Origin: an uncultured bacterium
GTDB taxonomy: Bacteria; UBP14; UBA6098
Reading direction: 5' to 3'
NCBI GenBank assembly: GCA_964459995.1
Contig: CAYWOR010000001.1
Coordinates: forward strand, 273,328 to 337,327
DNA: 64,000 nucleotides
In this document: positions 783-25,738 of the stretch, piece by piece
Numbering within the stretch: the first letter of the stretch is position 1
Layout of the letters: the number at the start of each line of letters is the position of its first letter
Translations under genes and position numbers: made by a program
The notes under the pieces: generated by a model
Database searches by the model: none
Seen by the model: the letters and a program-made list of their open reading frames with translations, nothing else
Told to the model about the DNA's origin: nothing

Positions 783-3700
783 ATGAAAAAGTTGAGCTTG
801 ATTTTATTATTCACGCTTTTCGTATCAATAGTTATTGCTGAAATTCCTTCTGCATGGCCGCTTGAAACGCTTATGGGAGTCGAGTTACTCGAATCCTCCA
901 ATGGCGAGTTCCCCCCCTGCGCAGATATTTTATCCTGCTATTTTAATGCGCAGTCGAACCGTATTCGGCTTCGGTTGCCGATGATGACAAATTTCATAAC
1001 CGGCGAGAACGAGTTTTCCTCGTATAATTGCGGAGTCCAAATCGAAATCGCCTATTCGGGCGCGCTGTCCGACGGCGTTCTCGGATTCTCGCATAACAAT
1101 ACGATATTTCTCGCCGTCGGACACGACGGACGAACCTCTGCATGGGCTTATAACGGTGCCCCTGTCGAGATTGACGAGGTCTATTTCGCGCCGGAATTTG
1201 GAATAATCGAAGCGGAGGTTCGTCCGCCGGCTGAAGCCGAAGGCTTCGGCGCGCGCCCTGTAGTGCGGGTCGAGACATTTGTGGACGGCAGAGCGGCTGA
1301 TATCGCACATTTCGACCCCGAACTCTTTCCGACATACACGACAAACTGCGCATTTATGCATCACGGCAATCAATCGCTGTCCTACACCGATGTTTTCCGC
1401 GGAAGATGGGACGACGGCCATGGCGGCCTTGCGAGCGGTTTTGACGAGGTTCTCGAAGTGCACCAGTTATATTCGATACCGGGGAATTTTCATATCAGCG
1501 GGACACTTATCTCTGCGGCGGCTTGGTATGACGCCGATTTCAATACATGGGTGGCAAACGGTGTTTCCGGAGGTTGGATAGAAGTTAACACAAGCGCATA
1601 CGCACAGCATATAATGCCCTTCGTGGCGGACGAGATGAACGACTGGGCTGTTAGCATCGAAAATGCCCTGGTTGACCATTTTTACGGGTTCACACCGCGA
1701 GTTGCATGGGTTCCGGAAAGGGTTTTTCTCGACGGCCCGGGCGGGGCATACCCCAACGCGGGTGTCAGCGATTATATCGCGGACAATTTTGCTGATAACG
1801 GGGTTTGGGCGATTATTCTCGACGATGACATTCATCTGGCGGGACATGACAATCACCAAATCCATTATTTAAACGGAAGCACGCTTAGATTAATACCACG
1901 CGACAACGATTTTACGGGCAAACTTCACGCTGGAGACGGCGGTGGCGCGCTCAATAATCTCGTCGGAATGGCGAACAATTCGTCGGGGCCTTATCGAATA
2001 GCTGTTTACGCCGATGATTGGGAAATGGCCGCCGAGATGGGCGAATGGGCATCGAGCATGCCGAACGCACTCGACGCTTATGAATGGATTATCCAGCAGT
2101 GTCACCTCGAATCGTCGTGGCTTTCGACATGGAAGCTCACCGACGCCGTTGTAAGCCCGAATTTCAACGGTGTAGGGGTTACACCCGCTTACGGCACACA
2201 CTCTTCGATTGGCGGGACCAACGGTTACGGCGGCGGGAATAACGCGTGGTACACACACTGGGCCAGCTATTCAAGCCCATCCGACCAGCACTCGCCGCAA
2301 TGGAATTTTGGATATATCTGGTTCGACGCAAAAAATAACCTTATGACCTGCCCAGATAACAACACCGCGCAGGCCGGATGGTATGTGCTTATGTCGAAAC
2401 TTTACGAGACCGGTTGGCATGACGGCATGGGCGGCTCGATTTCCGGCTGGCAGATGAAGCATTCGGCTCATATCAAGAACGCGAACGTTTATGCCGAAGC
2501 CGCGAGATGGGCTAACGGCGATCTCGGAACCGGGGTAAGCGCGACCTATGCCGATTGGGATCACAACGGCGATAACGAGCTAATCCTTCGCAACGGCAGA
2601 GTGCTTGCGGTTTTTAAACATATTGGCGGACGCGCGCATTGGATTTTCGGGCGCGGTGGCACGACAGGATGGGAAGGCTCGATTGCTGGCAACTGCAATG
2701 TCTATTGGGAAGGCACCGAGGGCGATTATAACGATGCTAATCATATCGCGCCTCTCTCCGATGTCAGCGTTGGCGGACACGATTATCAACATAGTCTCTA
2801 CAGCTCTGAAATCCTCTATAGCACAGCTGATTCTGCGGAAATAAGATTTACAAATTATTATGTCGATAAGCGAATAAAAGTGAAATCCGGTGAGCCATTT
2901 TTCCGTGTTTATTACGACACCGGCCCCGATCACATATATGTCAAATCCGGGTTCACGCCCGATTTGGTCGATATCATCTGGAACGCTGATATGAACAGGC
3001 TTTGGAGTGCGGGAAGTTACTGCGGTTTTCATAATCCGAACACACGCGCTTCTGCGGCGATAATTATGGGCACCGGTGGGGCGTCCCATTCCACCGATTT
3101 CCAGAGCACAATTCTTCGCGGCGACGAAATTTCCGGCTCGGGCGGTTTCGGGTTCCGTATTTTTGCGGGCGAATTGGCAGATGTCGCGGGGATGTCCTCG
3201 CCGACATTGGCGACACTTTCCGCCGGAGTTACCGATATTTATCCGCCGAAGGCCTACTATGCCAGCTATCACCCCGGTACCGGCGTAATGGAGATAGCTT
3301 TTGGGGACACTGTCAAGTATAACATGGTAACGATGGCAAATATCGGCATCGACCGCAACGGCAATGGAGCCTCCGATGTTACTCTCGACGGCACATGCAC
3401 GGTTATCAACACCTCGCACGCCAAGATTATACGGATTACTCTGTCGCCGGCAAAAAAGACCGCGGTTAACGCATTGGTTATGACAAATCCGCATCTATGG
3501 CTCTCCGCGGGCGCGTTTAGGGATTTGCGCGATAATCTGAACACAACACAGACCGCAACGGTCGGTTCGGGAGTTCAGTTGAATGTCCTGCCGGCGACGA
3601 GCATCACAATCGACGGCTATATAGACACATCGGAATGGCTTCCGGCGATGCATGTCATCGACGACCCGGACGATGATTCGCACTGGGGCGCTTCGAATGA

Positions 3701-4529
3701 GCTTTACGATCTTTATATGTTCTGGGATGATACCTATCTCTACCTCGGTCTTCACGGTGTAAAAGAGGCCGCGAGAAGCATGGTTGTGAATTCGTGGCTA
3801 ATTTACCTCGATACAGATTGGGGCGGCCCGAACGGCCAGTCCGATCTTCGCGAAATAAGTTCTTGGGACAGGAACGCGCAGTTCTCCGGCGGATTCCGCG
3901 CCGATATTCAATATGGCAGTTGGGGCGCGATGGATGGCGATGTCTGGCGTATCACAGGCCCGACTACCGCGGTGCAGATAACCGACGGCGTAATCGTGAA
4001 TACCGACCTAAGCGCGGCGCGTCCGGGAAGCGAAATCGCGATTAGTTGGAATTCTATCTACGGCATAGGCGAGGGTTTTGTAAATCCCCTGTCAACTATC
4101 GCTATTTGCGCGAGTTTGGCTGGAACGAACGATGACGACAATCTCGGCGGCGACTGCATTCCGAACCAGGCCTCGGCCTCATTTCCGGTTCTCGACAGTT
4201 TCTATGTGCAGGTCATCGATGCCGATGGCGACGGTCTTCCTGACGATTTCTTCGATGTCGTGGGAATTAGTGAACATGCTCCTTCTCGCGCCGAAAGTTT
4301 CGGAATACGAGCCTGCCCGAATCCCTTCAATTCTGCGGTTGAGATAATTACTTCGACTCGTAATAACTTGACAGTTGAGATTTTCGACATCAAAGGCCGG
4401 TTTGTCGATAGGGTCGAAATCGAGGCGGGAAGAGGAATTTGGCGTCCAAAAGAGGAAATGCCGACTGGAATATATTTTGCAAAAACAGGAAAAGGCTCCG
4501 ATTCGATAAAAATAACTTATCTAAAATAG
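783..4529 (+). CDS. Very large secreted protein (1248 aa) with T9SS type-A C-terminal sorting domain. N-terminal region carries GH57-like motifs (WVPERV, HHGNQ, LDDD). A CBM9-like module lies near residue ~950.
   Basis: Signal peptide MKKLSLILLFTLFVSIVIAE. C-terminus 'CPNPFNSAVEIITS..LTVEIFDIKGRFVD...GIYFAKT...KITYLK' matches Por_Secre_tail (TIGR04183-like). 'AWVPERVF' resembles GH57 conserved region III (WLTERV). 'GYIDTSEWLPAM...DLYMFWDDTYLYLGLH' is CBM9/DOMON-like. The catalytic assignment is weak. Confidence 0.55.
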   Translation: MKKLSLILLFTLFVSIVIAEIPSAWPLETLMGVELLESSNGEFPPCADILSCYFNAQSNRIRLRLPMMTNFITGENEFSSYNCGVQIEIAYSGALSDGVLGFSHNNTIFLAVGHDGRTSAWAYNGAPVEIDEVYFAPEFGIIEAEVRPPAEAEGFGARPVVRVETFVDGRAADIAHFDPELFPTYTTNCAFMHHGNQSLSYTDVFRGRWDDGHGGLASGFDEVLEVHQLYSIPGNFHISGTLISAAAWYDADFNTWVANGVSGGWIEVNTSAYAQHIMPFVADEMNDWAVSIENALVDHFYGFTPRVAWVPERVFLDGPGGAYPNAGVSDYIADNFADNGVWAIILDDDIHLAGHDNHQIHYLNGSTLRLIPRDNDFTGKLHAGDGGGALNNLVGMANNSSGPYRIAVYADDWEMAAEMGEWASSMPNALDAYEWIIQQCHLESSWLSTWKLTDAVVSPNFNGVGVTPAYGTHSSIGGTNGYGGGNNAWYTHWASYSSPSDQHSPQWNFGYIWFDAKNNLMTCPDNNTAQAGWYVLMSKLYETGWHDGMGGSISGWQMKHSAHIKNANVYAEAARWANGDLGTGVSATYADWDHNGDNELILRNGRVLAVFKHIGGRAHWIFGRGGTTGWEGSIAGNCNVYWEGTEGDYNDANHIAPLSDVSVGGHDYQHSLYSSEILYSTADSAEIRFTNYYVDKRIKVKSGEPFFRVYYDTGPDHIYVKSGFTPDLVDIIWNADMNRLWSAGSYCGFHNPNTRASAAIIMGTGGASHSTDFQSTILRGDEISGSGGFGFRIFAGELADVAGMSSPTLATLSAGVTDIYPPKAYYASYHPGTGVMEIAFGDTVKYNMVTMANIGIDRNGNGASDVTLDGTCTVINTSHAKIIRITLSPAKKTAVNALVMTNPHLWLSAGAFRDLRDNLNTTQTATVGSGVQLNVLPATSITIDGYIDTSEWLPAMHVIDDPDDDSHWGASNELYDLYMFWDDTYLYLGLHGVKEAARSMVVNSWLIYLDTDWGGPNGQSDLREISSWDRNAQFSGGFRADIQYGSWGAMDGDVWRITGPTTAVQITDGVIVNTDLSAARPGSEIAISWNSIYGIGEGFVNPLSTIAICASLAGTNDDDNLGGDCIPNQASASFPVLDSFYVQVIDADGDGLPDDFFDVVGISEHAPSRAESFGIRACPNPFNSAVEIITSTRNNLTVEIFDIKGRFVDRVEIEAGRGIWRPKEEMPTGIYFAKTGKGSDSIKITYLK

Positions 4530-4811
4530 CGCTAAATTGTCAATAAAATAATAATTAATAGTTGGTATCTCTTTGTAGTGTAATGAGATATATTCAGAGT
4601 ATTGTGAAAAACCGAAGCGAAAAATGTCCTTGCGAAGATGAAAAAAGAGCTTATTTTCTAATTAAGCGGAAATCAGTCGAAATGGACTGAAAAGCACAAA
4701 CGCACTCGTAATCGAAAGATTTATTCTATTCCCGCCCTCACAAATACGCGGAGTTATCGATTGATCGGCTCTCTGCGGGAGTATCATCATTATTCCGAAA
4801 GGGGAAATACG

Positions 4812-6182
4812 ATGAAACAGTTTACAATTATCGCCCTAATTGCCGTATTATGCGCACCTTTGTTTGCCGAGGTTGGCTGGTGCGGCGAGATATGGCCGAA
4901 TTCCGGAAGCGAAAGGCCCACCGGAGACCCTATAACAGTATATTTCCAAATTTGGAAAGGCGGAACGACAGACTCCCCCGGAAGAGGCGAAGGAATCGCC
5001 GCAACGCTCTACTGGAGAGAATCCGGTGCGGCGGTTTGGGAAACGGTCGAGTTGGATTATAACACGGATGTCGGAAATAACGACGAATATTTTGGCGATA
5101 TTCCCGCGCCAGTAGCAGAAGGTGTCATCGAATATTATTGCGAAGCCCTCGATTCAACCGATATGGTCGCCTCGACCGGCACAGACCAAAATGGTGTCGC
5201 GCTTAACTTGCTCGATCCCGGAATTCTGAATATAGTCGATGCGATTGAAATCGATGTTACGGTAACATTCCAGGTCGATATGAGCCTTGAAATAGTCTCC
5301 GATGTTGTTACGCTTTCCGGCTCTTTCAACGGCTGGAATACATATGCCGACACGATGACCGACCTCGATTCGGACGGAATATTCACAATTGACATAGTTT
5401 TTCCGGCGGGAAGTTCTCCGAGTCACGAGTATAAATACGTCAAAGACGGTGTTTACGAATACACATCGAACAGAATTCTCACCGTAGATGATTCTTCACC
5501 TACCCAAATTCTACCGGTTGTATTCTTCGAGGATCGCGACCCTGCGGACTATACTGATATTGACATCGATGTCCATTTCCGTGTTAATATGTCCGCGGAA
5601 ATTGTAACCACGCCCTATGTTGCGGGAAATGTTTTTCCGCTTGTCTGGGGCTGGGATGCTGGATGGAACGATGCCCTTATTCTTTACGATGACGGCGCGC
5701 ATGACGACGTCGCCGCGGGCGATGGAATTTACGGCGCGATATTGACTTTTCCGGCGGGAAGCTGGCGGTATATCGAATACAAGTTCACAACCGACGGCAC
5801 GGATAACGAGCCTTTGCCGCCCTTCGAGAATCACACTTTCGAGCTTGGCGATGTCTCTCCGCAGGTTCTTCCTATCGATGTTTTCGGAAGTCTCGAAAAT
5901 GTTTCCGAGGTGGTCTTGCCTAAGGGTTTTTCGGTGAAAGTATCGCCGAATCCTTTCAATTCTGCGGTCGAAATCGCTGTGCAGGCACTTAGAACAGGGA
6001 ATTTGGAACTTTCGGTTTTCGGAATCGACGGGCGACTTGTCAAAATTATTTATTCGGGAAATATCACGGAAGGCAATAATATATTCCGCTGGGATGCTGT
6101 TAATGAAAACTCCGGGTTATATTTTATCAAAATTGAGAATAATGGAATTTCGCACACGGAAAAAATCCTTCTTGTGAAATAG
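4812..6182 (+). CDS. Secreted protein with two starch/glycogen-binding-like (CBM20/25/48-type E-set) modules and T9SS type-A CTD. Start refined to the internal ATG with an upstream SD.
   Basis: SD AAAGGGG upstream of ATG 4812. Signal peptide MKQFTIIALIAVLCAPLFAE. Two modules of pattern 'V..V.L.GSFNGW......M.D.D.DG.F.......EYKY..DG'. C-terminus 'VSPNPFNSAVEIAV...LSVFGIDGRLV...GLYFIKIE....KILLVK'. Confidence 0.55.
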   Translation: MKQFTIIALIAVLCAPLFAEVGWCGEIWPNSGSERPTGDPITVYFQIWKGGTTDSPGRGEGIAATLYWRESGAAVWETVELDYNTDVGNNDEYFGDIPAPVAEGVIEYYCEALDSTDMVASTGTDQNGVALNLLDPGILNIVDAIEIDVTVTFQVDMSLEIVSDVVTLSGSFNGWNTYADTMTDLDSDGIFTIDIVFPAGSSPSHEYKYVKDGVYEYTSNRILTVDDSSPTQILPVVFFEDRDPADYTDIDIDVHFRVNMSAEIVTTPYVAGNVFPLVWGWDAGWNDALILYDDGAHDDVAAGDGIYGAILTFPAGSWRYIEYKFTTDGTDNEPLPPFENHTFELGDVSPQVLPIDVFGSLENVSEVVLPKGFSVKVSPNPFNSAVEIAVQALRTGNLELSVFGIDGRLVKIIYSGNITEGNNIFRWDAVNENSGLYFIKIENNGISHTEKILLVK

Positions 6183-6188
6183 GACGAT

Positions 6189-9100
6189 TTGAAATCATCT
6201 GTTGCCATAATTACTTTGATTGCGGCTTTTGCCCTCCTCGCGATTGCACCCTATAACAGCCCAATTATCGATGGTGCAATTGAGGCGGACTGGAAACCGG
6301 ACGAGAACATCCTCTCGGATCCGCCAAATGACAGCCCTTGGAGCGGAAACGAGCTTTGCGAATTATGGTTGACATGGTCTGCGGATCATCTATATATCGG
6401 TATCGAGTTTTCCGTGTCAGGAAATGGCGTTACTGTCTATATCGACGCCGATGAGGGCGGCACTTCAAGTTTCCGCGCAGAAGACGACTGGGAGGGCGCT
6501 TGGCGGCGCGATGTTACCTCGGAAAGGCCTATAGATATATTTATGGGCGGCTGGAATGGCTCCGCGATGAGTGTTTATCGAGCGGGCACGACAAATTCAA
6601 TCGATATAAGCGGTTTCTGCGAATCTTCCACAGGAGCGGGTTTCGAGGCCGAGGTGAAAATTCCGTGGGCGCAGATTTACCCCTCCGGAATGCCGGTGGG
6701 CGCAGAAATAGCTGTGGCGGTGCTTCTTGTCGGAGGGGACGACTATTTCGCCGCGGACGCTATGCCGGATCAGCCAACAGTTGGCGACGGTGCCGGACCG
6801 GATATCCTCGAGAATTTCCAGATTGTTGCCGTGGATTCTGACAGCGATGGCGTGCCGGATTTCGCGGGGACTTATATTGCAGGATTTGTGCGATTTTCCG
6901 ACATCGATACGCCGCCCTATCCGGTGGCGACAATCAATTGTGCAGGGCGTTTCGGCGAATCATCGACTTCTGACGGAAGTTGGCAGTTGCATGGCTTCGC
7001 GGTTGGAGATACTCTCGCATCGCTCAAAGCGAAAACTCCGGGGTATCGCGATGGAATCCTTCATGAAATTCTTGTAACCGAGCCGCCCAACGACACGTTG
7101 AATATTACTTTGGAGCCTTACACTGGAGCGGTTCGCGGGATGATTATTCCCGCCGTTCAGTGTTCAATCGTAGCGAGATTCTCCGATCAGAGCGACTCCG
7201 CGCGCTATTCGATATCAGTTCTAAGCGGCACTGGAGGCGAATTTGCTGTCGGTTACCTTGCGCCGGGATATTGGGATATTACCGCTTATCCTTATTCAGC
7301 GGATTTCTCCGCCACGAACGTCGAATCGGTGCGAGTCGCGGAGCCGGAGACGACGGTCATCGAAATTTTCCTCGAAGCCGCCTCGATTCTGCGTGAGTGG
7401 ACAGATGGTGTCGGCGACGATTATGGCCCGGGGTCATATACTTACCCGACCGAGCCGGTTTTCGTCGATGGTGCTTTCGACATAACCGGCGTCAGGATAA
7501 AGGATTACGCGGACGCCGGCGAAATCGAGTTCGAAATCGCAATGCGGAATATTCCCCATTACGGAATAGTTAACTGGGCACCCTTTTATCCGCCCCTAAA
7601 TCTACAGAAGATAGACATTTATATTGACGCCCACGGCGGAGGCTCCAGCCAAGGTCTTCCAAACCGCAATGTAAATTTCGTTCAGACCGATTATTGGGAC
7701 TGGGCGATTTCCGCTGACGGTTGGTGGGTCGGGATGTTTGCCTCCAACGGCCAGAGCATTTTCGATGGCTACACTCAGAATGTCATAGATGTTTCGATGA
7801 CTGCGGACACCTCGGCGAATACGATTTCTATTCGTGTTGCGAAATCGGCTTTCAGAGACCATTTGGGCGTTGCGAATTGGGACGAGTTCGACAGCTGGGA
7901 TTTCATCGTCCTTGCGATGGGGCACGACGGCGACGGTCTTGGCGGTGTGCGGTGGGTCAACCCCGGAAGCGCGAGCCAGTGGCAGTTTGGCGGCGGCGCG
8001 GAGGGGGATATCGATCCGAATATTATCGATATGTCTGTCAGTGCGGGAATCGACCCCGGAACAGGCTCAGTAAAAGAACCGGCGGATCCGCAGGAAACTC
8101 AACTCGACTGGACGATTAGCACTCCGGTGAGGCTTGCGGCGCATCGTGCCTTGGATGTTACACCTCCGACTATAGAGTTCGATAGGGAAGCCGAATTGGC
8201 GCATCTTTTCGGCACAAAGCACCTTTTAATTCGAACCGAAATCAAAGACGATATTGCGGTCGAAAGCGCTTGGTTACATTATCGGACGGCTGGCGCTTGG
8301 GACAGCGTGGCGATGGGAATCACAGAAAACCGCACGACTTGGTTCGGCGACATTGCGGTCGAAGGAAGGCTGGAAGACACAGATATCCCCGATTCGCTGA
8401 AATTTTTCTTTACGGCGACAGATGCCGCTGGCAACCGTGCGATTCTTCCCGACGACGGCGATTCGACCGTGCCGAATTATCCTTTTGCGGTGCATAGTGC
8501 GAATCCCGGGCGGGTCGTTTCCGCGCCGATAACCGTGGACAGCCTTAGAATATGCCTTCCGCAGAGTATGGACACTCTCGATTTCGATTTTGTATCCGGC
8601 GATATGATTCGAATCGCGCGGGCAGATTTGACTTCCTCCGGCACGATTTGCGTTGCAATTTCCTATCCGGCGGTCGTAGCGCGTGAGGGTGGTTTGGCGC
8701 GGCTTTCCGAAGTTAGACGGCGCATCGAAATCGGCGGTGCGGACATTTTCACACCTATGAATTTGCGGCTTCACTGGCTTGGGGGGAGAATTTCCGGGTT
8801 CGAGCCTTCGCAGTTGGTCTTATGCGAATACAGCGCGGATATCGCTCCGAGGCCCTACGGCGGAGTATTATATGAAAGAGCGAATACAATACTCGGCGAG
8901 GCTTTTCCCGGCACCGGTTTTTGGGCTGTCGGCGAGGATTTGCGAGATTTTCGCGGCAAGGGCGCATTGCGGAATATCGCCTTTTCGCCCAATCCATTCT
9001 CCCCAAACGGAGACGGCGTCTATGACCGGGTCGCAATCAGCTGGGAATCTGATTTTGACGGCAGTATGGATGTGGATATTTACGATATTAACGGTAATTT

Positions 9101-9293
9101 TGTGCGCGAATTGCATCGCAACACAAGTTTCCGATCCGGTAAAAGCCCCACGACATGGTGGGATGGTATAACACACAATGGAACAGTCGCGAAAGCCGGT
9201 ATTTACGCTGTCCGATTCGAATATACATATATCGGTGAAGAGGGAGTTCAGCTAAGAACAAGGATTAACAAACCAATAGTGATTATAAAATAA
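6189..9293 (+). CDS. Large secreted protein (1034 aa): CBM9-like N-terminal module, glucodextranase-C-like domain, FlgD-Ig/T9SS-like C-terminal domain. TTG start as given by the ORF track.
   Basis: Hydrophobic N-terminus. '[14 protein letters not shown]...[16 protein letters not shown]' is CBM9-like. '[35 protein letters not shown]...[14 protein letters not shown]' resembles Glucodextran_C (PF09985). C-terminus '[21 protein letters not shown]...[13 protein letters not shown]...GIYAVRFEY...IVIIK'. Confidence 0.5.
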
Positions 9294-10663: not shown

Positions 10664-11512
10664 TTGCGGAATGTAGTCTTCATATTTGCGATTCTCGTTT
10701 TCAGCGCTTTTGCGTTGCACGAGGAACAGACCGCTCCCGCGCGGATGCTTGGGATGGGGGGGACAGTCGTAGCGGCCGGAAATGGCGTGTCGGATGTCCC
10801 CTTCAACCCTGCTATTTCAGCTGGAATTGGCAGAATGTCGCTTGCCGGGACATATTCAGCACGCTGGGAGCTGGAGGGGTTTCGTGAATATTCCGCCGCA
10901 TTTGCGATGCCCGTGCGCTATGCAAATTTCGCGGTATATTGGCATGAGCGCAGTGTTGGCGATGTTTACGGTGAACACACCGCCGCGCTTAATGTGTCGA
11001 AAACCTTCCACGACGATATCCATGTTGGCATAACCGCAAAATTGTTGGCTACTTCCGCTCCCGGTGCGGAGCTTTGGGACGATCCGGCTTATAAAGGCGC
11101 CGTATATACGCCATGTGCAGATTTCGGGGTTCTTTATACACCAGGTGAAAAATGGCGCTTTGGCCTTTCCACGCGCAGTCTTGGTGCTCCTGAGGTGAAG
11201 CTTCTCGATTCGAGCATCGAAGGGGAGAAACTCGGAGGGCAGATTGCGCTCGGAAGCTCATGGGAGGCGGCACCGGACCTGATTCTCGCGATGGATATTC
11301 TCTCTCACGAGGGGAATCTGCATAGGTGGACACCGCGAATCGGAATGGAGATAACCTTTTTCGAGACTGTGGCTCTTCGTGCGGGCGCTAATGGCGAAAG
11401 ACTCTCTATGGGGGCTGGTTTGAAAGCCGATAGATGGGCTTTCGATTTCGGATTGCTTAATCATAGATGGCTGGGCAATATCTACAGAATAACATTGAGT
11501 TTAAACTACTAA
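10664..11512 (+). CDS. Putative outer-membrane beta-barrel protein (PorP/SprF-like or FadL-like 'NPA' motif family)
   Basis: Signal peptide MRNVVFIFAILVFSAFA. 'GMGGTVVAAGNGVSDVPFNPAISAG' resembles the N-terminal motif of OM transport barrels. Alternating hydrophobic pattern, aromatic C-terminus '...ITLSLNY'. Confidence 0.4.
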   Translation: MRNVVFIFAILVFSAFALHEEQTAPARMLGMGGTVVAAGNGVSDVPFNPAISAGIGRMSLAGTYSARWELEGFREYSAAFAMPVRYANFAVYWHERSVGDVYGEHTAALNVSKTFHDDIHVGITAKLLATSAPGAELWDDPAYKGAVYTPCADFGVLYTPGEKWRFGLSTRSLGAPEVKLLDSSIEGEKLGGQIALGSSWEAAPDLILAMDILSHEGNLHRWTPRIGMEITFFETVALRAGANGERLSMGAGLKADRWAFDFGLLNHRWLGNIYRITLSLNY

Positions 11513-12165: not shown

Positions 12166-12939
12166 ATGGAGACAAAATACGAAATAGCAAAGAACTGGTT
12201 TGCGCGCTATGTTGGCGTTAGCATCGACGAAATGGGCGATAGAATACTCTTGACTAACTTTCGGCATTATCTCGAAAGCTTCGCGAATAGGTTCGATGTT
12301 CCAATTCATGGTATCGGCGGACCGATGCAATCCGCGACGAACTCCGAGGGGTTATCGTTGATAAATTTCGGCATGGGCTCGCCCAACGCCGCAACCATAA
12401 TGGATCTGCTTTGCGCCCGAAAACCGCAGGCGGTGCTCTTTCTCGGTAAATGCGGCGGTATCAAACATGCGGCGGAAATCGGTCATTTCATACTTCCGAT
12501 AGCCGCAATCCGCGGTGAAGGGACTTCGAACGATTATTTTCCCCCCGAAGTGCCTGCTTTGCCGTCGTTTAAACTTCATAAATTCGTGTCGGAGAAGATA
12601 CTAGAACACGGCCACGAATATCGCACCGGCGTTGTTTACACAACGAACCGACGGCTTTGGGAGTGGGACTCGGATTTCAAGGAGTATCTGCGGAAGATTT
12701 CGGTAATCGGAATCGATATGGAGACCGCGACGATTTTTATTGTCGGACACGCGAACCATATTTCGCATGGCGCGCTGTTGCTTGTCTCGGATACCCCTAT
12801 GACTCCGGAGGGTGTAAAAACAGAGGTTTCCGACCGCACGGTAACCGAGAAATACGCCGAGCTTCATCTTCAAATTGGAATCGAGGCAATGAGCGAAATA
12901 ACTGACATGGGAGAATTAATAAAGCACTTCACTTTTTAA
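12166..12939 (+). CDS. amn: AMP nucleosidase-like protein, short form (PNP_UDP_1 catalytic domain only, no N-terminal regulatory domain)
   Basis: Strong motif-level identity to the E. coli Amn catalytic domain: 'NFGMGSPNAATIMDLLCARKPQAVLFLGKCGGI' (cf. 'NIGVGPSNAKTITDHLAVLRPHAWLMIGHCGGL'), 'IGIDMETATIF' (cf. 'AIDMESATIA'), 'LLLVSDTP' (cf. 'LLCVSDKP'), 'LHLQIGIEAM' (cf. 'EHLQIGIRAI'). Confidence 0.6.
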   Translation: METKYEIAKNWFARYVGVSIDEMGDRILLTNFRHYLESFANRFDVPIHGIGGPMQSATNSEGLSLINFGMGSPNAATIMDLLCARKPQAVLFLGKCGGIKHAAEIGHFILPIAAIRGEGTSNDYFPPEVPALPSFKLHKFVSEKILEHGHEYRTGVVYTTNRRLWEWDSDFKEYLRKISVIGIDMETATIFIVGHANHISHGALLLVSDTPMTPEGVKTEVSDRTVTEKYAELHLQIGIEAMSEITDMGELIKHFTF

Positions 12940-12980: not shown

Positions 12981-14423
12981 ATGAAAAAATTCATTGCGAC
13001 ATTATTTCTCTTCGCCGCAGGAGTTTTTGCAGTGGGGCTTGGGGGATATTACGAAATCCAGACCCGCCTCGCAGAGGACGGCACATGGCAATTGTTCGAG
13101 CCGAATCATCGATTCGAATTGCGCCTTCACGCCTCACCTTGGCAGGACACCGAGGCTTTTGCGAAATTCTATGCCGAGCTTTCGCGAATGCAGGATAACG
13201 ATCCCGAAAGGCGTCTTCGGGAATACACTCTTCTCGAAGGGCACCTCAAATACCGATGGCCACAGCATTTCGAGGTTTTAGCCTTCACGAAGGAGAACCG
13301 GTTTTGGTTTTCGCAGGGGCTTTTCGAGGTAGTTACCGCGGATCGGCTTGCGGGGGATTCGCAAGCGCTTCGTATGGATTTCTGGGGTTTCGGACCGGTG
13401 AGCGGGCTGGCTTATTACAATGATTGGTCGGGCTCCTCGGGAAGAGAGGATGCTCTCGTAGGGCGGATAAATGCACCCTTTTGGAAGGACAGAGTTCGTT
13501 TTGGGGCAACTGCCGCGCGAAAAGATTGGGGTGCTTCAACCTCCGATTATAATGCGGTCGTCGGCGGTGATGTTGGAGTTTCTGTCGGGCGGACAATCCC
13601 TCAATTGAGGCATTTCGGGAATATCGACATCACAGCGCAGGCCGCTACGAGCAGGACGCCTTTTGAGCCTCAGAGTGCCGACGACTTGATTTGGGCGGTG
13701 GAGATGCGTCAGCTCAAGCTCAAGGATTTCGAGCTTCAGGCGCGTTATCACGATTATGGCGCTGATTTTCGTAGCTATCTCTCGAACCAATTCGATTACG
13801 AGCAAAAGTTCAATGAGAGCGGCTATTATCTTCGCGGGGTCTATTTCTTTCCGATGAAGGCTGTCAATCTTTCTGCGAGTTATTCGCACACGAGCGCTCC
13901 TCAAAATAGGCTTCAGATAGTGTCCGAGTCGAACCCAAACCGGGATTATCGTGAAATATATGGTGAAATATATATTGAATGGGTCAACAATATTAAATCG
14001 AGAGTTTACTTCAAACAATACAATGGATGGGATCCGACCTATAACTCGAATCGCGATTATCCGACGTTTTTTGGCGAGATGAGCCTTGAAAACAGCCTTG
14101 CGAAAGTGCGTGCGCAGGTTCGCGCCAAAGATATTGGCACACCCTATCAGGTCATTGCGACAGGTGCGGAGATAAATGTCAACCTATCGAAAGATTTGAA
14201 ACTTTATGCGCGCGCTGTCAATGCCGCCGAAGACTACGAATCACGCCAAACAGCTTTTGTGCAACTTCGCTATGAGAGATTCCAGCCAGCGGAGATTTTT
14301 CTCGAATTTGGTAATCCGGGAGATTCTGATAATGACCTCACAAATGACGATGATTTTGTCAATGAGGCCGCCAGTCATGGGGTTAACAAGCAAATAAAAC
14401 TTTTCGTAAAGGTGTATTTCTGA
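12981..14423 (+). CDS. Putative outer-membrane beta-barrel protein (480 aa), hypothetical
   Basis: Signal peptide MKKFIATLFLFAAGVFA. Amphipathic beta-strand-like alternation throughout. C-terminal '...IKLFVKVYF' with terminal Phe, typical of the BAM substrate signature. Confidence 0.45.
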   Translation: MKKFIATLFLFAAGVFAVGLGGYYEIQTRLAEDGTWQLFEPNHRFELRLHASPWQDTEAFAKFYAELSRMQDNDPERRLREYTLLEGHLKYRWPQHFEVLAFTKENRFWFSQGLFEVVTADRLAGDSQALRMDFWGFGPVSGLAYYNDWSGSSGREDALVGRINAPFWKDRVRFGATAARKDWGASTSDYNAVVGGDVGVSVGRTIPQLRHFGNIDITAQAATSRTPFEPQSADDLIWAVEMRQLKLKDFELQARYHDYGADFRSYLSNQFDYEQKFNESGYYLRGVYFFPMKAVNLSASYSHTSAPQNRLQIVSESNPNRDYREIYGEIYIEWVNNIKSRVYFKQYNGWDPTYNSNRDYPTFFGEMSLENSLAKVRAQVRAKDIGTPYQVIATGAEINVNLSKDLKLYARAVNAAEDYESRQTAFVQLRYERFQPAEIFLEFGNPGDSDNDLTNDDDFVNEAASHGVNKQIKLFVKVYF

Positions 14424-14956
14424 TGAAAGAAAAAATACAGCTTCCGTTGGATTTCAAAATGTGGACAATGGTTCCCGTATATCTTGTGCTCATTGGAATT
14501 GTCTTTTATTTTGGGAGTGTGCTAGGTGCACGCTGGGCTTGGATGATTGGCTCACTCCTTATTGGAATATTGACAGGAATACCCGCCGCGAAATGGGAAC
14601 TTGCCGCAATCGGGGAATCATGGGAGGAGATACTCCACGGGCCGCTTGTGGGGTTCCGGCTTGCATATTTCAAGAAAGAAGGCGCGCGCAGAAGATCCTT
14701 CTATTTTCTGATTATGTCATTACTGGTTCCAGTGATTTATTTTCTGCTATCATATAATTTTTATTGGTATAGATATTTATCCGAGTCCGACATTCGGGAT
14801 TCCCTTTATCTAATGGTTCGTTGGAATGGATGGTATTGGTTCCCTTATGTTTTCGGGATGTCATTTTCCAGCACATGTCTTCCGCGCCTTATAGCGGCGG
14901 AGAGCTACAAACACGATAAAATCCCCTATCCGCGCGGGGTGAAAGATGCGAAATAA
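14423..14956 (+). CDS. Integral membrane protein (about 4 TM), hypothetical
   Basis: Four hydrophobic helices. Start overlaps the upstream stop (ATGA-type coupling). Confidence 0.4.
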   Translation: MKEKIQLPLDFKMWTMVPVYLVLIGIVFYFGSVLGARWAWMIGSLLIGILTGIPAAKWELAAIGESWEEILHGPLVGFRLAYFKKEGARRRSFYFLIMSLLVPVIYFLLSYNFYWYRYLSESDIRDSLYLMVRWNGWYWFPYVFGMSFSSTCLPRLIAAESYKHDKIPYPRGVKDAK

Positions 14957-17702
14957 ACTTGACAGACATGTTTTGGCGATTTTATCCGCCGGAGTTGTGG
15001 TAATTATGTCGCTGACAGCTTTAGCGGCGGTCGAGATGTCGGAGATGGGTGCGGTTTTCACTTTGGATGCACCGGAAGCACAATCCGTGCATCTTACAGG
15101 TGATTTCAACGGCTGGTCGGAATCCGCTACGCCGATGAAATTGGCTGGCGGTCTTTGGCGTGTCGAACTCGAACTCGCCCCGAAACGTTATGAATACAAG
15201 TTTTTGGTCGATGGGAGATATATCGAAGACCCTGATAATCCAAACACAAATCCCGATCCCTATGGCGGAGTGAATTCCGTTGTAACGGTCCACCCGAGCG
15301 GAGAAGTGCCTCTTCCCGACGACCCGCGAGGCGATCGAATTGATCCAAAAAAACTTTCCGATTCGAGCGCGATTCTTTTCGAGTATCAAAACCCAAATGC
15401 GCGCAAAGTATTCATTGCAGGCGATTTCAACGACTGGTCAACCGAAAAAAATCCATTGATGAACGATGGAAATGGGTTATGGAAAACAACGATTGACATA
15501 TCGCCGGGTAAATACGAGTATAAATATTACGTCGATTATGAATATATTATCGATCCTAACAACCCTAATCGCGTTCCTGACCCCTATGGCGGCGAGAATT
15601 CGATTATATATGTTCCGATATCGGATTACGATTTGATTGACGACGGCTTCAGAGGTAATGAATTTGTGGAGGTGATAGATTCACACGAACCGCAAACACG
15701 AATGCAGACTCAACCCGATGCGAATCGTTCTGCAGAAGGGACGGAATATGCTTTCGAGTATTACAACCCCGGAGCGAGGCAGGTTTTTATCGCCGGTGAT
15801 TTTAATTCGTGGTCTCCAAACGCCGCGGAAATGGTCTCTACCGGCGAAGGCAATTGGTCGAAAAAAATTGTCTTAAAGCCGGGAAAATATGGTTATAAAT
15901 ATATTGTCGATGGCAACTGGCAACCAGACCCTGAAAATCCCAATACACAGCCTGATGGCTACGGCGGAGTGAATTCGGTAGTGGAGATTTCGAAATCCGG
16001 CGAAATTGTGAGGTCAGAGAAGGCCAAAATTGCCGACCGTGTGTCGAACACTTTCGCAAATAGCAGGGTCTATATCGGCGGGAAATACACCGGTATCGCC
16101 GAAAGTAGGTGGAATCGCGACGGCGACGGACGTTTTCGCCTCAATGTGCCGAGGCATCGAATGGAAGCCTTCTTGCGGGTTAAAATAAGCGATAATGTGC
16201 GCGCGGTGGGGGCTTTGAGTTTTGATACAAAAGAGGCTGAAAGGATTTACGAGACATCTCTTGCAATGGATAGTGCCGCAGTAGAGCTTGTCAACGATAA
16301 TTTCCGTGCACAAATATACTATAACCGGCCTGTGGGCGGGCTTGGCGACCCGTTGGATATGGTTGGGAACTCGGCGATGGCGGGGAGCCCCGATGTCGAG
16401 ATTCCTTTTGGAATGGGCACTGGCGGAATTAAAGCCGAAGGCGAGCTTTTCGGTGCGAAGTTGACCGGTATCTACGCCGATAGGTATCACAGCAGAGCGG
16501 CCCAATTGCCCGACGGCGCGCTTCTCGACGGTCTCGGAAGGCCGACTTTCGGGCTTTTCGCAGAAGATGTAATCTCGCCATCTCCAAACCCGAACGCTTA
16601 CACAGGATATTCGACAGATATTCTCGCGGCGCGGATTTCACGCGGGATAGGACCTACGGAGATCGGCGCATCGTTACGAATGGATTCGGGGAATTGGTGG
16701 TATTCTTACGCATCCATGAGTTTGCCGGAACTTTCCGAGTGGGTTGATTCCACCGGCTCTACAAGCGATTGGTTCGCACTTGGCAAAACAGAATGGCTTT
16801 ATGGCGCGGATTTGCGGCTTAAAATAGGCCCCACGAGCCTTTGGACAGAGTATCTGCTATATGACTATGTCGGTGGAGTTGTCGCAGGAAATCGTGAAAA
16901 CGATGCTCGCGACAACAACGGTCCTATCGACCTCGAACTCGGCGCTAGAAAGGGAAATCTCGGCGATGTTGGATTTGGAATCGATCTTTTCGATTTGGCC
17001 ATAATCGGCGGCAAATACTCGTCCTTGGTCTATTCCGCTCCGAAGGACAGCGGCGTTTACTTAGAGCCGGCACCATCGATTTCCGGAAGCGGAAGGGTCG
17101 ATATGACATATTTCGAGCTTGTCCCGGAGGTCTCGACAACATGGTGGGAGAGCTACGACCTCGAAATCGGCCTTCAGCGATATTTTCCGGTTACATTACG
17201 CGGAGGAATCGAGAAATCTGCGGATTCGTTTACTGATACTCGTCGGGATGTTCGAAAACTCGGCTTCTCGGCAAAGGGTTCTATCCTTTGGGATTTCGTT
17301 CTTTACGATATTTGCGGCGATTGGGCAAACGCGGAATATGCTGACGGAGCTACTCAATTCGAGTTCTTATCGAAGTATGCATTGTCAATAAATCTTACCG
17401 AGAATTGGTATGTCGGTGTGGATGCAGTATTTCACGCCATCGAAGCTATTTCCGCCGAAGATTCGATATTGTGGGACGGCGTGTCCAAACCTTTGTTCGC
17501 ATATATTCAATATAGCCCTGTGCAAAATGTCCGAATGCAGGTTTACTGGGGCTTCCATCCCTCGATGGCAAACGGCTGGGTCGCGGGACGCCGCGAATTT
17601 GTCGATACATATATGCGCGAAAACGGCGCGACCTTCGCCGAGGCGTGGGAAGAGCTTGATAAAGTCCGTCAGATTGGGTTCCGCGGCGAAATCGATTTCT
17701 AA
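14946..17702 (+). CDS. 918-aa envelope protein: N-terminal signal/anchor, four tandem CBM48/AMPK-beta-type glycogen-binding modules, ~560-aa C-terminal domain ending in Phe (putative OM beta-barrel)
   Basis: Four repeats of 'V.L.GDFN.WS......M.....G.W........PG.YEYKF.VDG.....DP.NPN..PD.YGG.NS' at about residues 40-120, 145-225, 265-345 and 360-430, matching AMPK1_CBM/CBM48. C-terminus '...IGFRGEIDF'. Confidence 0.6.
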   Translation: MRNKLDRHVLAILSAGVVVIMSLTALAAVEMSEMGAVFTLDAPEAQSVHLTGDFNGWSESATPMKLAGGLWRVELELAPKRYEYKFLVDGRYIEDPDNPNTNPDPYGGVNSVVTVHPSGEVPLPDDPRGDRIDPKKLSDSSAILFEYQNPNARKVFIAGDFNDWSTEKNPLMNDGNGLWKTTIDISPGKYEYKYYVDYEYIIDPNNPNRVPDPYGGENSIIYVPISDYDLIDDGFRGNEFVEVIDSHEPQTRMQTQPDANRSAEGTEYAFEYYNPGARQVFIAGDFNSWSPNAAEMVSTGEGNWSKKIVLKPGKYGYKYIVDGNWQPDPENPNTQPDGYGGVNSVVEISKSGEIVRSEKAKIADRVSNTFANSRVYIGGKYTGIAESRWNRDGDGRFRLNVPRHRMEAFLRVKISDNVRAVGALSFDTKEAERIYETSLAMDSAAVELVNDNFRAQIYYNRPVGGLGDPLDMVGNSAMAGSPDVEIPFGMGTGGIKAEGELFGAKLTGIYADRYHSRAAQLPDGALLDGLGRPTFGLFAEDVISPSPNPNAYTGYSTDILAARISRGIGPTEIGASLRMDSGNWWYSYASMSLPELSEWVDSTGSTSDWFALGKTEWLYGADLRLKIGPTSLWTEYLLYDYVGGVVAGNRENDARDNNGPIDLELGARKGNLGDVGFGIDLFDLAIIGGKYSSLVYSAPKDSGVYLEPAPSISGSGRVDMTYFELVPEVSTTWWESYDLEIGLQRYFPVTLRGGIEKSADSFTDTRRDVRKLGFSAKGSILWDFVLYDICGDWANAEYADGATQFEFLSKYALSINLTENWYVGVDAVFHAIEAISAEDSILWDGVSKPLFAYIQYSPVQNVRMQVYWGFHPSMANGWVAGRREFVDTYMRENGATFAEAWEELDKVRQIGFRGEIDF

Positions 17703-17711
17703 GGGGCGTTT

Positions 17712-18107
17712 ATGAAAAGGGCTATCGAGACATTCGCAGTTATCGCAATTCTTTTTTTCTGCGCCTGTGCGGTTGGAGATGCAATCAAAAACAGGCTTCC
17801 GGCACCTCATAGAGTTGACGGAGGTGTGCTTTTCATGTATGAATACCCCGCCGCCAAACATGTGCAGGTTTGCGGAAATTTCAACAATTGGTGCGGAACC
17901 AAAGACACCGGCGGAATTCTCGATCCATCGATCGGGGTGATGTCCGACGAAAACGGCGACGGAATTTGGGAGTTTAAGATCGATCTTCCACCGGGAAGAT
18001 ACCAATATAAATATGTCGTGGACAGAATTAGCTGGGTGATGGACCCCTCGAACCCGAACATCGATTCGGAAGATGGCATCGAAAACAGTCTTCTGATTCT
18101 CCGTTAG
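17712..18107 (+). CDS. Small lipoprotein with a single CBM48/AMPK-beta-type glycogen-binding module
   Basis: Lipobox 'ILFFCAC'. 'VHVQVCGNFNNWCG........GIWEFKIDLPPGRYQYKYVVDRISWVMDPSNPN' matches the CBM48 pattern. Confidence 0.55.
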   Translation: MKRAIETFAVIAILFFCACAVGDAIKNRLPAPHRVDGGVLFMYEYPAAKHVQVCGNFNNWCGTKDTGGILDPSIGVMSDENGDGIWEFKIDLPPGRYQYKYVVDRISWVMDPSNPNIDSEDGIENSLLILR

Positions 18108-25579: not shown

Positions 25580-25602
25580 AAAATAGTAATTTCCTACATA
25601 AT

Positions 25603-25682: not shown

Positions 25683-25738
25683 ATGTGCCGATAGCGAAAC
25701 GCCGCCGCTTGGCACGGAAATAGCTAATAAGCAGGGAT

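What the first reader, a model, noticed from the sequence alone, without database searches (positions are those of the whole stretch)
14946..17702. Four tandem CBM48 modules fused to a ~560-aa C-terminal domain ending in Phe
Four AMPK-beta/CBM48-like units read clearly from the sequence (V.L.GDFNGWS...YEYKF.VDG...DP.NPN..PDPYGG.NSV). Such tandem arrays of non-catalytic glycogen-binding modules fused to a putative outer-membrane barrel are unusual. Most bacterial CBM48s sit on GH13 enzymes.
Basis: seen in the sequence. Interest (0 to 1): 0.65.

Follow-up and report, generated by a model that had tools for sequence, protein, structure and literature searches.

The report
Starch-binding modules fused to membrane barrel
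This gene encodes an uncharacterised outer-membrane protein: three glycogen/starch-binding modules (not four) joined to a large pore-like beta-barrel, inside a conserved starch-utilisation gene cassette of uncultured Zixibacteria-like bacteria, and it may be their still-unknown route for taking starch fragments across the outer membrane.

Summary
The ORF at 14946-17702 (+, 918 aa) is real. It has a signal peptide, THREE CBM48/AMPK-beta-type modules (Pfam 2e-43; not four) and a 556-aa C-terminal domain ending in Phe. The 'fourth' module belongs to a separate downstream lipoprotein gene (17712-18107). The C-terminal domain matches no Pfam, NCBIfam or PDB sequence. AlphaFold2 models it as an all-beta barrel of about 24 strands (pLDDT 74), and its only structural neighbours are large outer-membrane barrels. 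No GH13 domain is hidden in it.

The family is rare: 14 clusters at close range and 93 representatives with a profile. Its architecture is constant. All 69 full-length members carry 1-3 starch-binding modules, joined to the barrel by an 18-25 aa conserved linker, and 66 of 69 end in Phe.

It sits in a deeply conserved cassette: T9SS type-B cargo (Glucodextran_C), a PorP/PorV-like barrel, a second ~24-strand barrel, the CBM-barrel, then a small CBM48 lipoprotein. GH57/GH13 amylases and maltose-type ABC importer genes lie nearby.

Best reading: an outer-membrane alpha-glucan capture and uptake component. Which side of the membrane the modules face is unresolved. It is a new variant of a known kind, with moderate to high interest.

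The parts
14946..17702 (+). g3: CBM48x3-barrel protein, 918 aa (the finding)
   Evidence: ORF list. 99% identical to P0001, 6 substitutions.
14946..15029 (+). Sec signal peptide (aa 1-27/28, ...LTALA|AVE); no lipobox Cys
   Evidence: Read from the translation. The same layout is seen in the homologues.
15051..15290 (+). CBM48 module 1 (aa 36-115)
   Evidence: Pfam AMPK1_CBM/CBM_48; module HMM; coordinates.
15372..15614 (+). CBM48 module 2 (aa 143-223)
   Evidence: Best PDB sequence match is the AMPK beta-2 CBM, E=7.7e-11.
15747..15989 (+). CBM48 module 3 (aa 268-348), next to the barrel
15990..16061 (+). Conserved 24-aa linker with the SNT motif, between the last CBM and the first barrel strand
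   Evidence: Linker length is 18-25 aa in most of 69 family members, and the motif is conserved. N6 is invariant and S5/T7 nearly invariant in A1.
16062..17699 (+). C-terminal beta-barrel domain (about 24 strands) with long conserved loops, two helices before the last strand, and terminal ...GFRGEIDF
   Evidence: AF2 pLDDT 73.8, pTM 0.73. Foldseek PDB hits are outer-membrane barrels. Loop conservation.
17712..18107 (+). g4: small CBM48 lipoprotein (131 aa), the conserved partner gene
   Evidence: Pfam AMPK1_CBM 1.2e-9. Conserved lipobox Cys and the tether C...I(K/R)NRLxxPHxVxGG. Follows g3 in 10 distinct loci.
12981..14423 (+). g1: second large outer-membrane barrel (480 aa, about 24 strands, ends ...VKVYF), with no CBM
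   Evidence: AF2 pLDDT 79.9. Foldseek best matches are FimD/PapC usher pores and TBDT barrels. Homologues in distant cassettes, A2 profile 1e-71 to 1e-236.
14423..14956 (+). g2: 177-aa predicted 4-TM protein; its ends overlap g1 and g3; present only in close relatives
   Evidence: No family hit apart from a sub-threshold AbrB-duplication match.
10664..11512 (+). PorV/PorP-like small outer-membrane barrel (282 aa), a conserved cassette member
   Evidence: NCBIfam PorV_fam E=5.7e-11, sub-threshold. Orthologues hit PorP_SprF at E=4e-4 and 0.04. Homologous in 5 distant loci.
6189..9293 (+). T9SS type-B cargo: Glucodextran_C plus CHU_C C-terminal domain (1034 aa), the first gene of the conserved cassette
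   Evidence: Pfam Glucodextran_C 3.9e-35; CHU_C 7.8e-6, just under its cutoff. The same gene is found in L001, L010, L013, L015 and L018.
783..4529 (+). GH57-domain protein with a type-A T9SS tail (1248 aa)
   Evidence: Pfam Glyco_hydro_57 1.6e-5 (24.8 bits, cutoff 21.2); Por_Secre_tail 5.3e-5.
4761..6182 (+). CBM48-like protein with a type-A T9SS tail (473 aa)
   Evidence: Pfam Por_Secre_tail 5.7e-9; AMPK1_CBM 3.3e-5, sub-threshold.

Best explanation
g3 is an outer-membrane component of an alpha-glucan (starch/glycogen/maltodextrin) acquisition system in an uncultured Zixibacteria-like bacterium of the FCB group (Fibrobacterota-Chlorobiota-Bacteroidota).

Shown: (1) a Sec signal peptide; (2) three CBM48 modules that keep the sugar-contacting Trp/Lys/aromatic/Asn positions of the AMPK-beta CBM; (3) a plug-less beta-barrel of about 24 strands ending in a Phe beta-signal; (4) a constant gene partnership with a small CBM48 lipoprotein, a second ~24-strand barrel, a PorP/PorV-like barrel and a T9SS type-B cargo protein, next to amylolytic enzymes and, in relatives, a maltose-type ABC importer.

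Inferred mechanism: enzymes secreted by the T9SS and anchored on the surface cut alpha-glucan outside the cell. The barrel is the conduit for the resulting chains across the outer membrane. By ordinary beta-barrel topology the CBM48 array emerges at the periplasmic mouth. The barrel-proximal module is held by a fixed 18-25-residue linker and may dock in or under the lumen. The array and the g4 lipoprotein bind the incoming chain, prevent back-diffusion (a binding ratchet that needs no TonB) and hand it to the periplasmic binding protein of the ABC importer. Ligand specificity, orientation and transport are all inferred, not shown.
For: Domains: Pfam AMPK1_CBM 2e-43 and CBM_48 1e-32, three stretches each. 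In the alignment with the AMPK beta-2 CBM, the FNxW Trp, the YK Lys and the Asn are invariant, and the second aromatic position is Y/Y/W/W.

Barrel: AF2 gives pLDDT 73.8 and pTM 0.73 with about 25 strand elements. Foldseek finds 332 PDB hits at E<=0.001; the top 50 are TonB-dependent transporter barrels, MtrB and OmpF-type porins. One family member hits Pfam OMP_b-brl at 1.1e-5. 66 of 69 full-length relatives end in Phe.

Obligate coupling: all 69 full-length relatives have 1-3 CBM48-like modules. In P0035 the modules are best matched by CBM20, another starch-binding family. The linker is 18-25 aa with a conserved SNT motif.

Context: the cassette or parts of it recur in the window, L001, L002/3, L004, L008, L010, L013, L015, L017 and L018. 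Neighbours include GH57, GH13 alpha-amylases, GDE_C, SBP_bac_1, BPD_transp_1 and a MalK-type ATPase.

Topology: the connections between strands 2-3, 4-5, 6-7, 8-9, 10-11 and 12-13 are 2-4 aa, whereas 1-2, 3-4, 5-6, 7-8, 9-10, 11-12 and the last one are 12-43 aa. This puts the N-terminus on the same (periplasmic) side as the C-terminus if 479-497 is one kinked strand.
Against: There is no experimental datum for any family member.

The AF2 model rests on 13 sequences, and several loops fall below pLDDT 50. DSSP counts 25 strand elements, so strand parity, and therefore the side on which the CBM array emerges, is not settled. No coordinates were returned and no full-length or multimer model could be run.

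The long loops are more conserved than the strands. That is atypical for a simple porin, and the loops could close the lumen.

A periplasmic location for starch-binding modules has no characterised precedent in glycan uptake that I know of. By analogy with SusE/F, surface exposure would be expected.

The window itself has no ABC sugar importer next to the cassette. One distant relative (L019) stands alone without alpha-glucan neighbours.
Confidence: 0.5

Rival explanations
1. Surface starch-binding anchor. The barrel only anchors the protein in the outer membrane. The CBM48 array is threaded to the cell surface (autotransporter-like, or through the wide lumen), where it tethers the cell to starch or glycogen next to the T9SS-anchored enzymes. 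This would be a SusE/F-like surface glycan-binding protein with a barrel in place of a lipid anchor, and no transport.
For: An N-terminal passenger with a C-terminal barrel is the layout of type Va autotransporters (established knowledge). The module number varies from 1 to 3 between relatives, as in adhesins and SusE/F. One relative has a sub-threshold SusF_SusE Pfam hit. The neighbours are surface-displayed T9SS cargo proteins.
Against: A barrel of about 24 strands with highly conserved long loops is far larger than needed for anchoring; autotransporters use 12 strands. No Autotransporter Pfam hit was listed for the protein. The linker is short, fixed in length and conserved rather than a flexible stalk. 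The loop-length pattern puts the N-terminus at the periplasmic face. The partner g4 shows no recognisable surface-export signal, though that was judged by eye only.
Confidence: 0.22
2. T9SS accessory platform. g1, g3 and the PorP-like barrel form a dedicated outer-membrane docking complex for the adjacent giant type-B-CTD cargo (Glucodextran_C protein). The CBM48 modules bind the cargo's glycan modification or the cargo itself rather than the substrate.
For: The gene order cargo, PorP-like, g1, g3, g4 is strictly conserved across deep divergence. Type-B cargo genes are known to cluster with their cognate PorP/SprF anchors (PMC10202324). The NCBIfam T9SS plug model hits the CBM modules at sub-threshold (40 bits, cutoff 100).
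Against: Neither g1 nor g3 reaches the threshold of any T9SS family. In L016, g3 and g4 occur without g1, without a PorP-like gene and without a CHU_C cargo, but with GH13 and ABC importer genes. The sugar-binding residues of the CBMs are conserved. The swap to CBM20 in P0035 points to selection for starch binding.
Confidence: 0.1
3. Polysaccharide export porin. Like BcsC, PgaA or AlgE-AlgK, the periplasmic N-terminal domains guide a newly made alpha-glucan to a C-terminal barrel that exports it, for a capsule or matrix.
For: A periplasmic N-terminal carbohydrate-handling domain with a C-terminal barrel is the layout of BcsC and PgaA (established knowledge). A glycosyltransferase cluster lies in the same window at 51.7-63.7 kb.
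Against: The conserved neighbours are hydrolases (GH57, GH13, GDE_C) and ABC importer components, not synthases. The glycosyltransferase cluster is 34 kb away on the other strand. No alpha-glucan synthase is found in any cassette.
Confidence: 0.07
4. Envelope tether. Like OmpM or SlpA (SLH domain plus barrel), the protein staples the outer membrane to a periplasmic glycan layer through its CBM48 modules, and the barrel serves as a general porin.
For: Same layout: an N-terminal periplasmic glycan-binding domain with a C-terminal large barrel (established knowledge of OmpM/SlpA). One family member gives a weak SlpA_C Pfam hit, E=0.004.
Against: CBM48 is specific for alpha-glucan, not for peptidoglycan or secondary cell-wall polymers. 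The family is rare (93 representatives) and sits in catabolic loci rather than being a housekeeping gene.
Confidence: 0.05

Closest known systems
CBM48 / AMPK-beta glycogen-binding domain (Pfam PF02922, PF16561)
   Same: The three N-terminal modules and the g4 lipoprotein match above the curated thresholds. They keep the Trp, Lys, aromatic and Asn positions that align with the AMPK beta-2 CBM.
   Different: Known bacterial CBM48s are appended to GH13 enzymes (GlgB, GlgX, pullulanases). Here they are appended to a membrane barrel with no catalytic domain.
Bacteroides starch utilisation system (SusC barrel, SusD lid, SusE/F tandem starch-binding lipoproteins, SusG surface amylase)
   Same: The functional parts list is the same: a large outer-membrane barrel, tandem non-catalytic starch-binding modules, a small starch-binding lipoprotein, surface-anchored amylolytic enzymes, and all of it in one locus.
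   Different: There is no TonB box, no plug domain and no SusD-like protein, and no sequence relation to SusC. The binding modules are fused to the barrel, and the enzymes are displayed through T9SS tails instead of lipid anchors.
TonB-dependent transporters (22-strand barrel plus N-terminal plug), e.g. MalA of Caulobacter for maltodextrins
   Same: Their barrels are the best structural matches, Foldseek E down to 1e-9 and TM 0.3-0.5. In both, an N-terminal domain is joined to strand 1 by a short linker.
   Different: Sequence identity is 7-11%, and no Plug or TonB_dep_Rec Pfam match is found. The N-terminal domain is a CBM48 beta-sandwich. The strand count is probably 24 rather than 22.
Maltoporin LamB / cyclodextrin porin CymA
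   Same: The proposed role is the same: passive outer-membrane passage of alpha-1,4-glucan chains, followed by capture by a periplasmic binding protein and an ABC importer.
   Different: LamB has 18 strands and CymA 14. There is no sequence or Pfam relation, and neither carries a CBM.
OmpM/SlpA, BcsC and PgaA (N-terminal periplasmic glycan-handling domain plus C-terminal barrel)
   Same: Same domain order and the same inferred topology.
   Different: The N-terminal folds differ (SLH, TPR), and so do the roles (envelope tether, exporter) and the genomic contexts.

Membership tests
CBM48 (Pfam CBM_48 / AMPK1_CBM) | HMM match above the curated gathering score | tested here: met
   AMPK1_CBM 146.9 bits (cutoff 26.8) and CBM_48 112.7 bits (cutoff 22.4), three stretches each.
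CBM48 (Pfam CBM_48 / AMPK1_CBM) | Conservation of the carbohydrate-contacting residues. From my own knowledge of the AMPK beta-1 cyclodextrin complex, these are W100, K126, W133 and N150. | tested here: met
   In the alignment with the AMPK beta-2 CBM, the Trp (FNxW), Lys (YK) and Asn are invariant in all three modules and in g4. The second aromatic position is Y, Y, W, W.
CBM48 (Pfam CBM_48 / AMPK1_CBM) | Demonstrated binding of glycogen, starch or maltooligosaccharides | not testable with these tools
   This needs binding assays.
CBM20 | HMM match to PF00686 | tested here: not met
   No CBM_20 hit at E<=0.1 for the window protein. A distant relative, P0035, does have CBM_20 at 3.4e-19.
GH13 alpha-amylase superfamily | A catalytic (beta/alpha)8 domain (PF00128 or related) | tested here: not met
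   No hit in Pfam or in the PDB sequence search. The NCBIfam GlgB models match only their N-terminal CBM48 region (residues 23-217 of the models), at 95 bits against a cutoff of 577. The AF2 model of the C-terminal domain is all-beta with 2 short helices.
Outer-membrane beta-barrel protein (BAM substrate) | N-terminal Sec signal peptide | tested here: met
   Read from the sequence: a positively charged N-region, a hydrophobic core and an A-L-A site at aa 25-27. No predictor was run.
Outer-membrane beta-barrel protein (BAM substrate) | A closed antiparallel barrel of amphipathic strands | tested here: met
   AF2 gives about 25 strand elements, pTM 0.73. All top Foldseek PDB matches are outer-membrane barrels. 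Confidence is moderate (pLDDT 73.8; 13-sequence alignment).
Outer-membrane beta-barrel protein (BAM substrate) | C-terminal beta-signal ending in an aromatic residue | tested here: met
   ...QIGFRGEIDF in the window protein. 66 of 69 full-length relatives end in F and one in Y.
TonB-dependent transporter / SusC | N-terminal plug domain (PF07715), TonB box and TonB_dep_Rec barrel signature | tested here: not met
   No such Pfam or NCBIfam hits. Only the barrel shape is similar (TM 0.3-0.5, 7-11% identity).
Maltoporin (LamB, PF02264) | HMM match and an 18-strand barrel | tested here: not met
   No hit. The model has about 24 strands.
Type Va autotransporter | A 12-strand C-terminal barrel (PF03797) with an alpha-helical linker through the pore | tested here: not met
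   No hit. The barrel has about 24 strands, and the linker is 24 aa with no predicted helix.
T9SS cargo | A C-terminal type A (PF18962) or type B (PF13585) sorting domain | tested here: not met
   g3 has neither. Its neighbours at 783-4529, 4761-6182, 6189-9293 and 18216-21461 do.

The most novel reading that the evidence does not exclude
The cassette encodes a previously unrecognised outer-membrane glycan-import machine, independent of TonB and of SusCD, in candidate phyla of the FCB group. It would comprise two ~24-strand barrels, a CBM48 lipoprotein and a T9SS-anchored enzyme. The barrel-proximal CBM48 would act as a substrate-binding plug or ratchet at the pore, allowing 'selfish' uptake of long alpha-glucan chains driven by binding alone.
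Probability: 0.2. Interest if true: 0.85.

Novelty: new variant of a known kind. Interest (0 to 1): 0.6.

Why it matters
How diderm bacteria outside the Bacteroidota bring large glycans across the outer membrane is largely unknown. SusCD-type TonB-dependent systems and small specific porins are the only well-described routes.

This family fuses the substrate-recognition module directly to a large plug-less barrel. It also travels with surface-anchored amylolytic enzymes and ABC importers across at least three labelled lineages (Zixibacteria, Krumholzibacteria and a Spirochaetota-labelled MAG).

If it is a channel, it gives a concrete, testable candidate for starch or glycogen uptake in abundant uncultured sediment and soil phyla. 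It would also define a new barrel family, currently without a Pfam model and annotated only as 'glycogen-binding domain-containing protein'.

If instead it is only a surface anchor, it is still a new way of displaying CBMs on a diderm cell.

Tried and rejected
1. Four modules in one protein: rejected. Pfam and a custom HMM find three, and the fourth is in the separate g4 gene.

2. Hidden GH13 or other catalytic domain in the C-terminal 556 aa: rejected.

3. CBM20 rather than CBM48: rejected for the window protein.

4. Sequence relatives of either barrel in the PDB: none, even with profiles at E<=10.

5. Paralogy of the g1 and g3 barrels: only a weak local hhalign match (E=0.002, probability 14%), so it remains open.

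6. 'g4 is the plug of g1': disfavoured, because L016 has g3 and g4 without g1.

8. The promoter and terminator scan of 9-25 kb found no more sites than shuffled sequence and gave no operon boundaries.

9. Five literature searches found no description of a CBM48-barrel protein. The Fibrobacter proteomics paper mentions CBM48 only on GH9 enzymes.

10. Strand parity, and hence CBM orientation, could not be settled: only DSSP strings are returned, not coordinates.


Full report
**1. Observation**

It has an ATG preceded by a GGGGTG Shine-Dalgarno-like stretch, and a TAA stop.

Pfam finds AMPK1_CBM (E=2e-43, 146.9 bits) and CBM_48 (E=1e-32, 112.7 bits), each with three stretches, and no CBM_20. The modules are:
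- module 1, aa 36-115 (nt 15051-15290);
- module 2, aa 143-223 (nt 15372-15614);
- module 3, aa 268-348 (nt 15747-15989).

They are 47-52% identical to each other, and the G-D-F-N-x-W motif occurs three times only.

So the count of four is wrong. The fourth unit is the body of the next gene (17712..18107, 131 aa; AMPK1_CBM E=1.2e-9). That gene starts 9 nt after the TAA, in the same reading frame, and has its own signal peptide and lipobox cysteine.

The C-terminal part (aa 363-918) ends in ...GFRGEIDF. It has no Pfam, NCBIfam or PDB sequence match, whether searched as a single sequence or as a 13-sequence profile.

**2. What the C-terminal domain is**

An AlphaFold2 model built on an alignment of 13 family members has mean pLDDT 73.8 and pTM 0.73. 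It is almost entirely beta: about 25 strand elements, plus two helices (519-543) just before the last strand.

Foldseek against the PDB gives 332 matches at E<=0.001. The 50 listed are all large outer-membrane barrels or engineered porins: TonB-dependent transporters, MtrB and OmpF-type porins. TM-scores are 0.3-0.5 and identities only 7-11%. This is a generic large barrel rather than a member of one of those families.

The barrel reading is also supported by the signal peptide, by the terminal Phe (66 of 69 full-length relatives end in F), and by a Pfam OMP_b-brl hit in one family member. There is no plug domain, no TonB box family hit and no catalytic domain.

**3. The family**

A word-indexed search of 5.8 billion proteins with the barrel alone found only 14 clusters. 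Every full-length cluster carries CBM48 modules in front of the same barrel.

A profile search of 1.84 billion representatives found 93 proteins at E<=0.001. They match colinearly at the N-terminal and C-terminal parts of the barrel.

Among the 69 relatives of at least 600 aa:
- 52 have one CBM48-like module, 12 have two and 5 have three; none has zero;
- the three-module form is confined to the window's own clade;
- in one distant member (P0035) the modules are best matched by CBM20, a different starch-binding family. This argues that what is selected is alpha-glucan binding next to the barrel;
- the linker from the last module to strand 1 is 18-25 aa in most members and carries a conserved SNT motif. 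That suggests a fixed geometric relation between the proximal module and the barrel, not a flexible stalk.

Source names are only 'glycogen-binding domain-containing protein', 'isoamylase early set domain-containing protein' or 'hypothetical protein'. The organism labels are Zixibacteria, Krumholzibacteria and one Spirochaetota-labelled MAG.

The window's own AccA is 63-69% identical to proteins labelled Zixibacteria or Calditrichaeota. Its closest relatives (85-100%) are unnamed.

**4. Surroundings**

The gene is the third of four tightly packed genes:
- g1, 12981-14423;
- g2, 14423-14956, which overlaps g1 by one base and g3 by 11 bases;
- g3, the finding;
- g4, the CBM48 lipoprotein.

g1 (480 aa, signal peptide, ends ...VKVYF) has no family hit. 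AF2 models it as a second barrel of about 24 strands (pLDDT 79.9). Its best Foldseek matches are the FimD/PapC usher pores and TonB-dependent transporter barrels, at TM about 0.5. g2 is a 177-aa four-helix membrane protein found only in close relatives.

Upstream lie:
- a GH57-domain protein with a type-A T9SS tail (783-4529);
- a CBM48-like protein with a type-A tail (4761-6182);
- a 1034-aa Glucodextran_C protein with a type-B (CHU_C) tail (6189-9293);
- a 282-aa PorV/PorP-like barrel (10664-11512).

Across relatives as distant as E=1e-40 to 4e-6, the order [type-B cargo, usually with Glucodextran_C] - [~285 aa PorP/PorV-like] - [g1 homologue] - [CBM-barrel] - [small CBM48 lipoprotein] is kept (L010, L013, L015, L017, L018). 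Homology of each partner was confirmed by HMM or phmmer. In L017, however, the type-B cargo has only a weak CHU_C hit and no Glucodextran_C, and the 119-aa gene after g3 shows no lipobox cysteine or CBM48 in the residues examined.

These loci also carry GH57, GH13 alpha-amylases with CBM48, GDE_C, SBP_bac_1, BPD_transp_1 and a MalK-type ATPase. One locus has g3 and g4 without g1 (L016), and one has g3 alone (L019). The pairing of g3 with g4 is thus the most constant feature.

According to a T9SS review, type-B CTD cargo (PF13585) depends on a cognate PorP/SprF protein that is usually encoded next to it and is proposed to anchor it on the surface (PMC10202324). That fits the first two genes of the cassette.

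The rest of the window (25-64 kb) is housekeeping: cell-shape genes, a PAS histidine kinase and a glycosyltransferase cluster.

**5. Mechanism**

Shown here:
- CBM48 identity;
- conservation of the positions that align with the sugar-contacting Trp/Lys/Trp/Asn of the AMPK-beta CBM (the residue roles are from my own knowledge of the AMPK beta-1 cyclodextrin complex);
- a predicted large plug-less barrel;
- a conserved alpha-glucan catabolic context.

Inferred: the protein is the outer-membrane capture and uptake element of this system.

On orientation, the last strand of a BAM substrate ends in the periplasm, so the 40-aa helical connection before it is extracellular. In the N-terminal half, the long connections (12-43 aa) alternate strictly with 2-4-aa turns. 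All long connections fall on the extracellular side, and the N-terminus on the periplasmic side, if 479-485 and 488-497 form one kinked strand (24 strands in total). On that reading, the CBM48 array emerges at the periplasmic mouth or in the lumen. There, together with the g4 lipoprotein, it could bind incoming chains, oppose back-diffusion and pass them to the ABC importer's binding protein.

This is an inference. DSSP counts 25 elements, no coordinates were available, and a full-length or multimer model could not be run.

The long loops are more conserved (0.63-0.81) than the strands and turns. This is unusual for porins and suggests that the loops form a constriction, a gate or a partner-binding surface.

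**6. Rivals**

- **Surface anchor.** A barrel-anchored surface starch-binding protein, SusE/F-like or autotransporter-like in topology. It is plausible by analogy. It is disfavoured by the barrel size, the fixed short linker and the loop pattern.
- **T9SS docking platform.** A platform for the neighbouring type-B cargo. It is supported by the strict synteny. It is weakened by L016, by the conserved sugar-binding residues and by the CBM20 swap.
- **Alpha-glucan exporter**, like BcsC or PgaA. The context is hydrolases and importers, not synthases.
- **Envelope tether**, like OmpM or SlpA. It is unlikely for a rare protein encoded in a catabolic locus.

**7. Comparison and novelty**

The modules are bona fide CBM48. 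The barrel belongs to no described family in Pfam, NCBIfam or the PDB sequence set. It fails the defining tests for TonB-dependent transporters/SusC, LamB, autotransporters and T9SS cargo.

Functionally the cassette resembles the Bacteroides Sus system in its parts list, but it is built from unrelated components.

Five full-text searches found no description of this architecture. I rate it a new variant of a known kind: an outer-membrane glycan-acquisition protein.

Interest is 0.6. The architecture and its conserved five-gene cassette are surprising and give a testable candidate for glycan uptake in uncultured FCB phyla. All functional statements are computational, however, and the key question of module orientation is open.

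Noticed in passing
window 17700-17714: g3 and g4 are in the same reading frame, separated only by TAA and 9 nt. The same spacing and frame occur in L001 but not in L002.
   Followed up: yes
window 14423-14956 (+): A 177-aa predicted four-helix membrane protein is wedged between the two barrel genes, with overlapping start and stop codons. It is conserved only in the close clade (L001, L002, L004, L008). It has no family assignment apart from a sub-threshold AbrB-duplication hit.
   Followed up: partly
window 12981-14423 (+): A second large barrel of about 24 strands has no Pfam, NCBIfam or PDB relatives and only 18 clusters in 5.8 billion proteins. It has a very conserved acidic last loop (FGNPGDSDNDLTNDDDFV). 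It shows a faint local hhalign similarity to the g3 barrel (E=0.002).
   Followed up: partly
window 12166-12939 (+): A short-form AMP nucleosidase (NCBIfam NF005500, 372 bits) is embedded in the cassette in the close clade only. It has no obvious link to alpha-glucan use.
   Followed up: no
window 18216-21461 and 21463-24090 (+): A 1081-aa BNR-like/PDIAV-like protein with a type-B T9SS tail is followed by an 875-aa protein with no hits. The same pair follows g4 in L001 and L004.
   Followed up: no
window 14946-17702, CBM modules: The NCBIfam 'T9SS plug protein' model (NF052315) hits the CBM48 modules at sub-threshold (E=2.2e-10, 40 bits, cutoff 100). This hints that the T9SS plug contains a CBM48-like beta-sandwich.
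   Followed up: no
window 9315-10244 (+): A 309-aa protein has an acidic, proline-rich repeat region (weak PARP-like hit). It lies between the type-B cargo gene and the PorP-like gene, and is conserved in L001 and L004.
   Followed up: no
window 25007-26629 (+): Two further small outer-membrane barrel candidates (OMP_b-brl and FadL-like, both sub-threshold) lie just downstream of the cassette, after an AT-rich gap at about 24.1-25.0 kb (GC 0.415).
   Followed up: no
window 36717-39686 (-): Another T9SS type-A cargo protein (989 aa) has a weak NIDO-like region and is unrelated to the alpha-glucan cassette.
   Followed up: no
L013 (P0035): A distant family member has two modules best matched by CBM20 in place of CBM48, in front of the same barrel and in the same cassette. 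This is a natural domain swap between starch-binding families.
   Followed up: partly
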